Shown here: one piece after another, positions 34,201 through 36,636 of the stretch
How positions within the stretch are numbered: position 1 is the stretch's first letter
How the letters are laid out: each line of letters begins with the position of its first letter
Source of the DNA: Escherichia coli
GTDB taxonomy: Bacteria; Pseudomonadota; Gammaproteobacteria; Enterobacterales; Enterobacteriaceae
Assembly: GCF_051903065.1 (NCBI RefSeq)
Contig: NZ_CP178438.1
Length of the DNA: 64,000 nt
Direction: 5' to 3' (one strand)
Made by a program: the position numbers

Positions 34201-36636
34201 AGAATGCCTTCCTGGTCGTCCAGTGAACGCAGCGTTTTTTCGTCATCTTGCAGGAATTTTTGCCCGCGCGAGGTGGGCAGCCAGGTATCATCTGGCGTGC
34301 TTTCCATCAGCTCAAACTGGGGATAGTTGAGGAATAAGTAGCAGCCGTAGCTGTGGCGCGGATTCAGAATGTGATTGTCAGTATCCCAGATGCGACGGGC
34401 GATGTCGGCATCTTCACCCGTTAAGCGCTCGCTGATCCACAGGTCGGGTTCTGACCAGTCAACGGGTTTTTGCGGCGTACCGGTTTGATCGCGAATGGCG
34501 GTAATCATATTGCGTACCGCTTTCAGGGAATAGCCTGAGACGGCTTTCATCATAGCTTTAACCTGTGCATAGGTAGGAAAAAGCGGGGTAATAACTTTAT
34601 AGTTTTTCACGGTAATCCCTTAACGACAGCGAGGTGTTTAGTGTGCCATGTCAGGCGAGAAATTCTATTGGATGAATCAAGTCCAACTTACTCATTGTCA
34701 ATTTCATGGTTGATTATCCAAAACGTGATGCTATTTCCAACATCAACGCTATAATTGCAGAATAATTGTAGATACATTTTTGTATATACAATTAGGGATG
34801 GCAACTATGCCAATGGAGTTTGAATGGGATGCAAACAAGGCCAAAAGTAATCGGGTGAAACATGGCATCCGCTTTGAAGATGCGGTGTTAGTGTTTGATG
34901 ATCCACAACATTTGTCACAGCAAGATCGCATAGAAAACGGTGAGTATCGCTGGCAGACTATCGGCTTGGTTCACGGTATCGTGGTTATTCTGGTTGCGCA
35001 TACCATCCGTTTCGAAAGCGGAAATGAAATTATTCGAATCATCAGTGCACGAAAAGCAGATCGTAAAGAGAGGAGTCGCTATGAGCATGGTTAAACATAA
35101 ACGAGGGGCACCCTCTACACTCGATGTGCAGCATGAGGCCGAACTGAAGGCACTGGCGAATAAATCCGACGAAGATATTGATTACAGTGATATCCCGCCT
35201 TCCAGCGATGAGCAATGGTCTAACGCAGAACGCGGTAAGTTTTATCGGCCATTGAAAACTCAGGCTTCGGTGCGTATTGATGCTGATGTGATGGAATGGC
35301 TGAAGCGACCAGGTAAAGGCTATCAAACTCGCCTGAACGCAATTTTACGTGAAGCGATGCTGCGCGATCAGAACAAAAAATAATTCAGGCCGCCACATGG
35401 CGGCCATCATCCAAAATTACTTCCTCAACCCCGCAAACGCTGCCCGAATCTCTTCCTCCGGCAACTGAATCCCGATAAACACCATTGTGCTATGCGGTGT
35501 TTCATCACCCCACGGCCTGTCCCAGTCGGCGCTGTAGAGGCGCTGGACGCCCTGGAATAGCAGGCGGTTAGGTTCGCCGTCAATCCACAGCATCCCTTTG
35601 TAACGCAGCAGTTTATCCGCCGATTCCAGCAGCAGGTTTTCCATCACCCGGGAAACTTCGCTGATATCTACCGGGTAATCCAGTTCCACCACAATCGACG
35701 AAATATCGTTTTGTTTATCCGCGATAAAGTGGAAACGCGGTTTGGTGCTGACGACGTTCTCTTCCAGCATAAAACCGTTGGTGTTGAACAGCAGGCCCAG
35801 GTCGATGTCGCCGTGGGTGACGGTGTAGACCGGTGCACGGGCGTTGATGCGCGCCAGGCGTTCACGCAGTTTTTCTGCTTCGCCTGCGACGTCGGTTTTA
35901 GTCAGCAGAATACGGTCGGCGTAGCCCACCTGGGACTGGGCGATGGTGAACTGGTTCATCTGCTCATCGGCATGTACCGCATCCACCAGCGCAATCACGC
36001 CGTCCAGCAGGTAACGCTGGCATAAAATCTCATGGGAGAAAAAGGTCTGAATAATCGGGCCGGGATCGGCCATGCCGGTGCATTCAATGACCAGACGATC
36101 GAACTGAATATTGCCCTTGTCGAGATTATCCAGCAGGTCGAGTAGTGCGTCTTCCAGCTCGTTGGAGCGCGAACAGCAGATGCAGCCGTTGGTCAGCGTT
36201 TTGATCTGCGTGGCGCGGTCGCCAATCAGTTGATCATCAACGGAGACTTCGCCGAATTCGTTTTCAATCACGGCAATCTTGTAGCCGTGTTGTTCGTTAA
36301 GAATATGGCGCAGCAGGGTGGTTTTGCCCGCGCCTAAAAAACCGGTGAGTAGGGTAACTGCAATCGGGTTCATGCTCTCTCCATTAACAACAGCGCATAC
36401 CGCCTTTACCATCGCCGCCGTAGCGCGCGTTCTGGCGTTCGCGGAAGAATTCTTCATAGCTCATGTACGGCTTGTCGGGATGGTTGGTCTTCATATGCTC
36501 GACGTAGTTGTCGTAGTCTGGAATGCCAATCAACATCTTCGCCGCCTGGCCGAGATATTTTTTTGCCTGTCCTAAGTTACCAAACATTTTGCCTTCCAGA
36601 TATGCGTAAAGCCCGGAAGGTCCGGGCTGGGGATTT

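What the first reader, a model, noticed from the sequence alone, without database searches (positions are those of the whole stretch)
34764..35094. BrnT/BrnA toxin-antitoxin module with a nested palindromic operator on its promoter
brnT (DUF497 ribonuclease toxin) and an overlapping downstream brnA form a typical type II pair. Immediately after a TATAAT box lies AATTGTAGATACATTTTTGTATATACAATT, which contains the perfect palindrome TTGTATATACAA. That is the expected architecture for antitoxin autorepression. The module is accessory relative to K-12 at this site.
Basis: partly seen in the sequence, partly recalled or inferred. Interest (0 to 1): 0.4.

Follow-up and report, generated by a model that had tools for sequence, protein, structure and literature searches.

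The report
Annotated BrnT/BrnA toxin-antitoxin with conserved operator
This is an ordinary, already annotated BrnT/BrnA toxin-antitoxin gene pair of E. coli, and the palindrome in front of it is very probably the site where the antitoxin represses its own operon, because the same short motif sits in front of related gene pairs in very distant bacteria.

Summary
brnT lies at 34807-35094 and brnA at 35081-35383, overlapping by 14 nt. Both are clear Pfam matches, and RefSeq already names them BrnT/BrnA in about 2,100 of 5,426 complete E. coli genomes. A solved Salmonella Typhimurium toxin-antitoxin complex (PDB 7VD7) is about 85% identical to BrnT.

K-12 lacks the pair. Homology to K-12 resumes exactly at the yjiA stop codon, so the module sits at the edge of the variable immigration-control region.

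The 12-nt palindrome alone is not significant (7% of shuffles reach it). Comparison makes the case:
- TGTA-NN-TACA lies within 120 nt upstream of brnT in 47 of 80 related loci and only twice in 367 kb elsewhere.
- The proximal site, TGTATATACA, is invariant across Enterobacterales, even where the flanks are unrelated.
- A second, degenerate site lies 14 bp upstream.
- The central bases change together with the BrnA ribbon-helix-helix strand.
- No compensatory changes support an RNA hairpin.

The interpretation of antitoxin autorepression is therefore supported, but binding, toxicity and the transcription start remain untested. About 16% of carrier genomes have lost most of brnT and kept brnA. 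This is a known system of low interest. The only new element is a family-wide operator motif, which I could not find in the searchable literature.

The parts
34720..34741 (+). Conserved upstream block AAAACGTGATGCTATTTCCAAC. It is the left edge of the conserved brnTA unit and covers the -35 region. Its function is unknown; TGTGA-N6-TTCCA resembles a CRP half-site.
   Evidence: In the alignment of 15 enterobacterial loci, similarity begins sharply here, and GTGA, G, T and TTTCCA are invariant. No + strand sigma-70 promoter was called.
34750..34755 (+). Candidate -10 hexamer TATAAT.
   Evidence: T, A, T and the final T are invariant in 15 loci. There is no good -35 at 16-18 bp.
34751..34772 (+). 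11-bp tandem direct repeat ATAATTGCAGA / ATAATTGTAGA. It contains a second -10-like hexamer, AATAAT, at 34761-34766.
   Evidence: The repeat is collapsed to one copy in a variant found in about 115 E. coli genomes.
34767..34776 (.). Distal operator site O1, TGTAGATACA. It is the degenerate copy.
   Evidence: It lies 14 bp from O2 in 15 locus pairs. Its central bases vary between species.
34781..34790 (.). Proximal operator site O2, TGTATATACA. It is the core of the perfect palindrome TTGTATATACAA at 34780-34791.
   Evidence: It is nearly invariant in Enterobacterales loci with unrelated flanks: exact in all but two, which differ by one base (L019, L036). The identical 12-mer is present on an Acinetobacter plasmid.
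34794..34798 (+). Shine-Dalgarno AGGGA for brnT.
   Evidence: It lies 8 nt before the ATG at 34807. AGG is conserved in the alignment.
34807..35094 (+). brnT, a 95-aa BrnT-family (DUF497) toxin and putative ribonuclease.
   Evidence: Pfam PF04365, E=6e-25. PDB 7VD7_A, E=5e-53, and Brucella BrnT 3U97, E=4.5e-4. PGAP name. D8, K11, R48 and E88 are invariant.
35070..35075 (+). Shine-Dalgarno GAGGAG for brnA, located inside the 3' end of brnT.
   Evidence: Sequence. The 14-nt overlap geometry is conserved in all close relatives.
35081..35383 (+). brnA, a 100-aa antitoxin. Its N-terminal part binds the toxin and its C-terminal part is ribbon-helix-helix-like.
   Evidence: Pfam PF14384, E=2e-17, over residues 37-93. 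Residues 14-57 match 7VD7_B. The AF2 model shows an extended segment at 58-66, then helices 68-75 and 81-99.
35388..35405 (-). GC-rich hairpin with a T-run on the minus strand. It is the terminator of convergent yjiA and possibly also stops brnTA transcription.
   Evidence: It lies in the non-K-12 segment; K-12 homology starts at 35417.

Best explanation
The locus is an intact chromosomal BrnT/BrnA type II toxin-antitoxin operon at the yjiA edge of the E. coli immigration-control region.

How it probably works:
- brnT and brnA are probably co-transcribed, toxin first, from a promoter between 34720 and 34766. The 14-nt overlap suggests translational coupling.
- BrnT is a small RelE-like ribonuclease.
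- BrnA neutralises BrnT through its N-terminal half and dimerises through a C-terminal ribbon-helix-helix domain.
- BrnA dimers, alone or within the BrnT-BrnA complex, bind two 10-bp sites of the form TGTA-NN-TACA: O1 at 34767-34776 and O2 at 34781-34790, centres 14 bp apart.
- These sites lie just downstream of, or overlapping, the -10 and transcription start region, so binding would shut off the operon's own transcription.

Shown here: family membership, gene geometry, conservation of the catalytic residues, absence from K-12, and the conservation, position and spacing of the operator motif.

Inferred: the physical complex (from 7VD7), ribonuclease toxicity and autorepression (from Brucella BrnTA), BrnA as the protein that reads the motif, and the transcription start.
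For: Family membership and annotation:
- Pfam BrnT_toxin 87.8 bits against a cut-off of 34.5, and BrnA_antitoxin 63.8 bits against 26.1.
- 7VD7 chains A and B match at E=5e-53 and E=1.5e-16. 7VD7 is identified as the S. Typhimurium toxin-antitoxin complex.
- PGAP annotation is identical, and the exact proteins occur on more than 1000 contigs under these names.
- D8, K11, R48 and E88, the equivalents of Brucella D6, K9, R41 and E78, are invariant in 22 diverse homologues (residue roles from PMC5086665).

Operator:
- An exact TGTA-NN-TACA lies within 120 nt upstream of brnT in 47 of 80 loci (50 sites in 9.6 kb), against 2 sites in 367 kb elsewhere.
- O2 is invariant across Escherichia, Citrobacter, Klebsiella, Enterobacter, Raoultella, Kosakonia, Xenorhabdus, Photorhabdus and Erwinia, even where the flanks share no similarity.
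- The same 12-mer precedes brnTA on an Acinetobacter plasmid. TGTAACTACA sits inside a TTGATG-17-TACAAT promoter on an IncP plasmid.
- A 14-bp site spacing recurs 15 times.
- The BrnA beta-strand changes together with the central bases: ASVRID with TATA, LTLRLD with GT, and the Arg-less ITNVSVD with no motif.
- The Brucella brnTA promoter primer ends in ATTGTACATACG.
- Within E. coli, the 87-nt promoter and operator region is at least 99% identical in 1775 of 2000 carriers.
Against: - No binding, toxicity or transcript data exist for this locus.
- The simple sigma-70 scan finds no + strand promoter, and no good -35 accompanies either -10 candidate.
- The Brucella catalytic residue E7 is Ala here, and this position is variable across the family.
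- The Foldseek search of the BrnA monomer model retrieved only 7VD7_B and no solved ribbon-helix-helix protein.
- The loci are phylogenetically related, so the enrichment P-value overstates independence.
- About 16% of carrier genomes have lost brnT, so the toxin is dispensable.
Confidence: 0.85

Rival explanations
1. The inverted repeat acts as an RNA hairpin in the brnT 5' leader, controlling mRNA stability or ribosome access, rather than as a DNA operator.
For: If transcribed, 34762-34812 folds at -15.9 kcal/mol with z = -4.1, and none of 200 shuffles fold as well. A second small hairpin covers the AUG.
Against: - RNAalifold on 22 loci finds no pair with compensatory changes, and the consensus energy is only -3.95 kcal/mol.
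- The left arm varies while the right arm stays invariant.
- Many relatives keep only the self-palindromic O2, without a partner arm.
- On the IncP plasmid the motif lies in the promoter spacer, upstream of any transcript.
- Depending on the true transcription start, part of the arm may not be transcribed at all.
Confidence: 0.07
2. The palindrome is a chance feature of an AT-rich promoter, or the site of a host regulator unrelated to BrnA.
For: A 12-nt perfect palindrome arises in 7% of shuffles of this region. The neighbouring conserved block, with its TGTGA half-site, shows that other factors may act here.
Against: The motif follows brnTA into Acinetobacter and IncP plasmids, alphaproteobacteria and a spirochaete MAG with unrelated flanks. 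It is essentially absent from the rest of those loci. A host factor would not be shared across these hosts. The motif variant also tracks the BrnA strand sequence.
Confidence: 0.03
3. The pair is a domesticated or inert remnant. BrnT is not appreciably toxic at native levels, and the locus persists only as a self-regulated passenger of the defence island.
For: - 331 of 2111 carrier genomes retain only fragments of brnT with an intact brnA.
- Brucella E7 is Ala here.
- There is no PADLOC defence model hit.
- Chromosomal toxin-antitoxin systems often show no phenotype (PMC7280312 abstract).
Against: - 1780 genomes keep at least 80% of brnT.
- Four of five catalytic residues are invariant across the family.
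- Loss always removes the toxin and keeps the antitoxin, which is the pattern expected if the toxin is active.
- The operator is maintained.
Confidence: 0.15

Closest known systems
Toxin-antitoxin complex of Salmonella enterica serovar Typhimurium, PDB 7VD7 (released 2022-09-14)
   Same: The toxin is about 85% identical over all 94 residues. Antitoxin residues 14-57 are about 75% identical. The gene family is the same, and the Salmonella pair is presumably the orthologue.
   Different: The crystal holds only the toxin-binding segment of the antitoxin (44 aa), so it says nothing about DNA binding. No paper describing it was found in the searchable library. Its exact sequence is not in the protein collection.
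BrnT/BrnA of Brucella abortus (Heaton et al. 2012, J Biol Chem 287:12098; PDB 3U97), the founding member
   Same: - The Pfam families are the same, the toxin gene comes first, and the antitoxin carries a C-terminal ribbon-helix-helix domain.
- In Brucella a 2:2 complex binds and represses its own promoter, and BrnT is a ribonuclease (as summarised in PMC5086665 and PMC11980606).
- D6, K9, R41 and E78 are conserved here as D8, K11, R48 and E88.
- A TGTACATAC motif lies just upstream of Brucella brnT (primer sequence in PMC11150624).
   Different: The toxins are only about 33% identical, with phmmer E=4.5e-4. E7 is Ala here. The Brucella operator sequence was, as far as I could find, not defined. 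The original paper is not held.
Plasmid-borne brnTA pdif modules of Acinetobacter (e.g. PMC7885321)
   Same: The toxin is 58% identical. The identical TTGTATATACAA palindrome, plus upstream GTGATACA repeats, lies in front of brnT.
   Different: The Acinetobacter modules are mobile pdif modules on small plasmids. The E. coli module is single-copy and chromosomal, at a fixed position next to yjiA.
Ribbon-helix-helix antitoxin operators in general (RelB/relO, ParD, FitA, CopG/Arc/MetJ type); from established knowledge
   Same: Short palindromic sub-sites near the -10 and transcription start are read by the beta-ribbon of a dimer. Two or more sub-sites are bound cooperatively.
   Different: Here the DNA-binding domain is C-terminal and the toxin-binding part is N-terminal, with the toxin gene first. 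The centre-to-centre spacing of 14 bp is longer than one helical turn.

Membership tests
BrnT/BrnA type II toxin-antitoxin | Toxin carries the BrnT_toxin (DUF497, PF04365) domain. | tested here: met
   E=6.2e-25, 87.8 bits against a cut-off of 34.5, covering profile positions 1-77 of 77.
BrnT/BrnA type II toxin-antitoxin | Antitoxin carries the BrnA_antitoxin (DUF4415, PF14384) domain. | tested here: met
   E=2e-17, 63.8 bits against a cut-off of 26.1, over residues 37-93.
BrnT/BrnA type II toxin-antitoxin | Bicistronic arrangement with the toxin gene upstream and adjacent or overlapping reading frames. | tested here: met
   brnT 34807-35094 and brnA 35081-35383 overlap by 14 nt, with a GAGGAG Shine-Dalgarno inside brnT. 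The same overlap occurs in all close relatives. Co-transcription itself was not tested.
BrnT/BrnA type II toxin-antitoxin | Residues required for BrnT ribonuclease activity (Brucella D6, E7, K9, R41, E78). | tested here: met
   D8, K11, R48 and E88 are present and invariant in 22 homologues, including Brucella. The E7 position is Ala here and varies across the family (residue list from PMC5086665). Four of five are met.
BrnT/BrnA type II toxin-antitoxin | C-terminal ribbon-helix-helix DNA-binding domain in BrnA. | tested here: inconclusive
   The AF2 monomer model (pLDDT 77.6) shows an extended segment at 58-66 followed by helices 68-75 and 81-99, which is the expected topology. Foldseek against the PDB returned only 7VD7_B and no solved ribbon-helix-helix protein. 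The strand can only form in a dimer.
BrnT/BrnA type II toxin-antitoxin | Toxin and antitoxin form a physical complex. | not testable with these tools
   Inferred from 7VD7, in which the homologous segment (BrnA residues 14-57) is bound to the toxin.
BrnT/BrnA type II toxin-antitoxin | Toxin arrests growth or translation, and the antitoxin rescues it. | not testable with these tools
Indirect support: natural deletions remove brnT and keep brnA.
BrnT/BrnA type II toxin-antitoxin | The complex binds and represses its own promoter. | not testable with these tools
   Binding was not tested. Comparative support: the TGTA-NN-TACA motif is conserved upstream of brnT in 47 of 80 loci, against 2 sites elsewhere, with conserved 14-bp spacing and co-variation with the BrnA strand.
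Known anti-phage defence systems (PADLOC-DB 2.0) | Match to a defence-system protein model. | tested here: not met
   No PADLOC hit for BrnT or BrnA. The neighbouring Mrr_cat endonuclease matches the candidate PDC-S02 at E=1e-205.
Rfam RNA families (leader or sRNA) | Match reaching the gathering score in 34400-35600. | tested here: not met
   The only match is drz-agam-1 at 21.5 bits against a gathering score of 37 (E=0.16), which is a chance match.

The most novel reading that the evidence does not exclude
TGTA-NN-TACA may be a family-wide BrnA recognition code, in which the ribbon residues set the central dinucleotide (ASVRID with TATA, LTLRLD with GT). Separately, the E. coli module, sitting at the fixed yjiA edge of the hypervariable immigration-control region next to restriction-modification and a PDC-S02 nuclease, may act as a stabiliser of that defence island or as an abortive-infection element, rather than as a mere passenger.
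Probability: 0.2. Interest if true: 0.4.

Novelty: already known. Interest (0 to 1): 0.15.

Why it matters
As a gene pair it adds nothing new. It is named BrnT/BrnA in RefSeq in about 39% of complete E. coli genomes, and a near-orthologous complex has a solved structure.

The modest value lies in three by-products:
- A concrete two-site operator (TGTA-NN-TACA, 14-bp spacing) is conserved from Escherichia to Acinetobacter plasmids, Rhizobiales and a spirochaete. This gives a direct, cheap target for EMSA or footprinting. With the co-varying ribbon residues, it also offers a small natural specificity series for ribbon-helix-helix recognition.
- K-12 is a clean null background for testing the module.
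- The population shows toxin-first decay that leaves orphan brnA, a textbook pattern of toxin-antitoxin erosion.

Tried and rejected
- The sigma-70 promoter scan of 34500-35500 found no + strand site. I could not assign a -35 to either -10 candidate (TATAAT at 34750, AATAAT at 34761). A class II CRP reading (TGTGA-N6-TTCCA centred 41.5 bp upstream of a start implied by AATAAT) fits geometrically but has a poor right half-site, so I left it as a note.
- NCBIfam gave no hit for either protein, and PADLOC gave none.
- Rfam gave only a sub-threshold chance match.
- The RNA-hairpin reading was tested with RNAalifold and rejected for lack of covariation.
- A LexA box (CTG-N10-CAG) and a Fur box were considered by eye and rejected because the spacing and bases do not fit.
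- The exact-sequence look-up of the 7VD7 toxin failed. Its source organism came from Foldseek's PDB description instead.
- Literature searches for 7VD7, TGTATATACA, DUF4415 and BrnT with Typhimurium found no description of this operator or of the E. coli or Salmonella module.
- Heaton et al. 2012 is not held, so the Brucella facts come from reviews.
- The first coordinates I tried for brnT were off by one and were corrected.

Full report
**What is there.** The window is E. coli chromosome and is 100% identical over this stretch to strain Combat11I9. The gene order is:
- type I restriction-modification genes (hsdR, hsdS, hsdM);
- an Mrr_cat restriction endonuclease (33444-34610, minus strand);
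- brnT (34807-35094, plus strand);
- brnA (35081-35383, plus strand);
- yjiA, yjiX and btsT (minus strand).

The quoted sequence AATTGTAGATACATTTTTGTATATACAATT is at 34764-34793, and the perfect palindrome TTGTATATACAA is at 34780-34791. TATAAT is at 34750-34755. The repeat finder reports 14-nt inverted arms at 34763-34776 and 34781-34794 (13 of 14 complementary, 4-nt gap). It also reports an 11-bp tandem direct repeat, ATAATTGCAGA / ATAATTGTAGA, at 34751-34772. The finding's coordinates leave out brnA.

**Identity of the genes.**
- BrnT matches Pfam BrnT_toxin (PF04365) at E=6e-25. BrnA matches BrnA_antitoxin (PF14384) at E=2e-17. Both are far above the curated cut-offs.
- BrnT aligns end to end with chain A of PDB 7VD7 (E=5e-53, about 85% identity). 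BrnA residues 14-57 align with chain B (E=1.5e-16).
- Foldseek's PDB table identifies 7VD7 as a toxin-antitoxin complex from Salmonella Typhimurium, released in 2022.
- The founding member, Brucella BrnT (3U97), matches at E=4.5e-4.
- In an alignment of 22 diverse homologues that includes Brucella, W7, D8, K11, K18, H19, F23, F30, R48, G53, S80, R82 and E88 are invariant.
- D8, K11, R48 and E88 correspond to Brucella D6, K9, R41 and E78, which a review lists as needed for ribonuclease activity. The fifth residue, E7, is Ala here and varies across the family.
- An AlphaFold model of BrnA (pLDDT 77.6) shows a helix at 16-26, an extended segment at 58-66 and helices at 68-75 and 81-99. This is the ribbon-helix-helix order of elements. 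As a monomer it retrieved no solved ribbon-helix-helix structure.
- The two reading frames overlap by 14 nt, and a GAGGAG Shine-Dalgarno for brnA lies inside brnT. All close relatives share this geometry.

**Already annotated.** PGAP names the two genes 'BrnT family toxin' and 'BrnA antitoxin family protein'. The exact protein sequences occur on more than 1000 contigs under those names. The DNA is present once per genome in 2112 of 5426 complete E. coli genomes.

**Relation to K-12.** In MG1655, mrr and yjiA are 45 bp apart and there is no brnTA. BLAST of the K-12 locus against the window shows homology resuming exactly at the yjiA stop codon, 35417. The module therefore belongs to the variable immigration-control segment. 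The brnTA-yjiA arrangement also occurs in several Citrobacter species and in Pluralibacter. The Mrr_cat gene is also adjacent in E. albertii, C. youngae and C. sedlakii. The arrangement is therefore old and K-12 most likely lost it; 'accessory' is correct but 'inserted' is probably not.

**Is the palindrome more than chance?** Taken alone, barely. A perfect palindrome of 12 nt or more arises in 7.1% of dinucleotide-preserving shuffles of the 196-nt intergenic region. The 14-nt inverted repeat arises in 12 of 20,000 shuffles. The only two TGTANNTACA matches in the 64-kb window are the two adjacent sites at 34767-34776 and 34781-34790.

**Comparative evidence.** I fetched 80 loci encoding BrnT relatives from one-genome-per-species contigs.
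- An exact TGTA-NN-TACA lies within 120 nt upstream of the brnT start in 47 of the 80 loci (50 sites in 9.6 kb). Only 2 sites occur in the remaining 367 kb. The nominal Poisson P of 1e-129 overstates independence because the loci are related.
- The flanks often share no similarity at all. Enterobacter, Pluralibacter, Kosakonia, Silvania, Xenorhabdus, Photorhabdus, Erwinia, Cedecea and Pantoea loci keep TGTATATACA at -24 to -46 from the start in otherwise different sequence.
- In 22 enterobacterial loci the proximal site O2 is invariant. The distal site O1 varies in its centre: TGTAGATACA here, and TGTACATACA, TGTCTATAC or TGTATATGC elsewhere.
- A 14-bp spacing between sites recurs 15 times.
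- An Acinetobacter baumannii plasmid whose BrnT is 58% identical carries the identical TTGTATATACAA. An IncP plasmid module (48% identical) has TGTAACTACA inside a clear TTGATG-17-TACAAT promoter.
- Alphaproteobacterial loci have TGTAGTTACA or TGTAATTACA. A spirochaete MAG has TGTATATACA.
- The reverse primer used to clone the Brucella brnTA promoter ends, in reverse complement, in ATTGTACATACG. The founding member therefore carries the motif as well.
- The motif variant tracks the BrnA beta-strand. (Q/H)ASVRID and QTSVRID go with TGTATATACA (32 exact matches, 3 with one mismatch). QLTLRLD goes with TGTAGTTACA (7 of 7). STTVR(V/L)D goes mostly with TGTAGTAACA. The Arg-less ITNVSVD group has no motif (4 of 4).

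This pattern is what one expects if the module's own ribbon-helix-helix protein reads the site. It is hard to reconcile with a host factor.

**RNA alternative.** If transcribed, 34762-34812 would fold well (-15.9 kcal/mol, z = -4.1). However, RNAalifold on 22 loci finds no compensatory change and a weak consensus. Many relatives keep only the self-palindromic O2. No Rfam family matches. I consider the RNA reading unlikely.

**Promoter.** This is the weak point.
- The consensus scan finds no + strand sigma-70 promoter.
- In 15 enterobacterial loci, sequence similarity starts abruptly at about 34720. It covers an invariant block (GTGA.G.T.TTTCCA.C), the TATAAT hexamer (T, A, T and final T invariant) and a second hexamer, GATAAT or AATAAT, at 34761-34766.
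- Either hexamer could be the -10. With the first, O1 and O2 lie at about +5 to +28. With the second, O1 abuts the -10 and covers the transcription start.
- Both placements allow repression by occlusion. The transcription start needs an experiment.

**Population variation.**
- 1780 genomes keep at least 80% of brnT, and 331 keep only fragments.
- One recurrent allele has an internal brnT deletion of about 170 bp and an intact brnA. A sub-lineage of about 115 genomes has also collapsed the 11-bp tandem repeat in the promoter.
- Another allele has lost everything from 34744 to about 35033, that is the -10, the operator and most of brnT. It keeps brnA next to Fic and GmrSD genes.
- In every case the toxin is lost and the antitoxin is kept, the usual erosion pattern of toxin-antitoxin loci.
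- Among carriers of the promoter region, 1775 of 2000 are at least 99% identical over 87 nt.

**Verdict.** The system is a known kind and is already annotated as such, so interest is low. The one thing I could not find described in the searchable literature is the operator motif and its family-wide conservation. That makes the proposed EMSA and reporter experiments straightforward, but it does not change the classification.

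Noticed in passing
window 33444-34610 (minus strand): The neighbouring 388-aa Mrr_cat restriction endonuclease is not K-12 Mrr. It matches the PADLOC phage-defence candidate PDC-S02 at E=1e-205. It sits next to brnTA in E. albertii, C. youngae and C. sedlakii as well.
   Followed up: partly
window 34720-34741: The invariant block AAAACGTGATGCTATTTCCAAC marks the sharp left edge of the conserved brnTA unit in 15 enterobacterial loci. TGTGA-N6-TTCCA looks like a CRP half-site centred 41.5 bp before the start implied by the AATAAT hexamer. Its function is unknown.
   Followed up: partly
window 34751-34772; L083 1640-1660; L087: The 11-bp tandem repeat ATAATTGCAGA / ATAATTGTAGA is collapsed to one copy in about 115 E. 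coli genomes. In both examples I checked, this came together with a brnT deletion of about 170 bp. The same brnT deletion also exists with the repeat intact, in L088.
   Followed up: partly
L084 2480-2560 (E. coli DG341-1): A deletion joins ...TTTCCAACAT directly to TCGAATCATCAG... near the brnT 3' end. It removes the -10, both operator sites and most of brnT, and leaves an orphan brnA beside Fic and GmrSD genes.
   Followed up: partly
window 35388-35405: The GC-rich hairpin GGCCGCCACATGGCGGCC has its T-run on the minus strand, so it is the yjiA terminator. K-12 has a REP-like sequence at this position, and K-12 homology begins exactly at the yjiA stop codon, 35417.
   Followed up: yes
Brucella abortus brnTA promoter primer, PMC11150624: The reverse primer CGTATGTACAATAATTCGTCTGGG shows that ATTGTACATACG lies just upstream of Brucella brnT. 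That is the same TGTA-NN-TAC motif in the founding member of the family.
   Followed up: no
window 34799-34812: A small predicted RNA hairpin, UGGCA-ACUA-UGCCA, encloses the brnT start codon. It is not conserved in other genera, so it is probably incidental.
   Followed up: partly
window 35417-36457: The longest yjiA ORF is 346 aa, but PGAP and K-12 annotate 318 aa (957 nt). The extra N-terminal 28 codons are probably not translated.
   Followed up: no
plasmid record CP054241.1 (834 kb, E. coli): This record carries a 100% identical brnT and brnA. At this size, and with chromosomal content, it is probably chromosomal sequence labelled as a plasmid.
   Followed up: no
window 34807-35380: NCBIfam release 20 has no HMM hit for either protein, although PGAP names them BrnT and BrnA. 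The names must come from another rule type.
   Followed up: no
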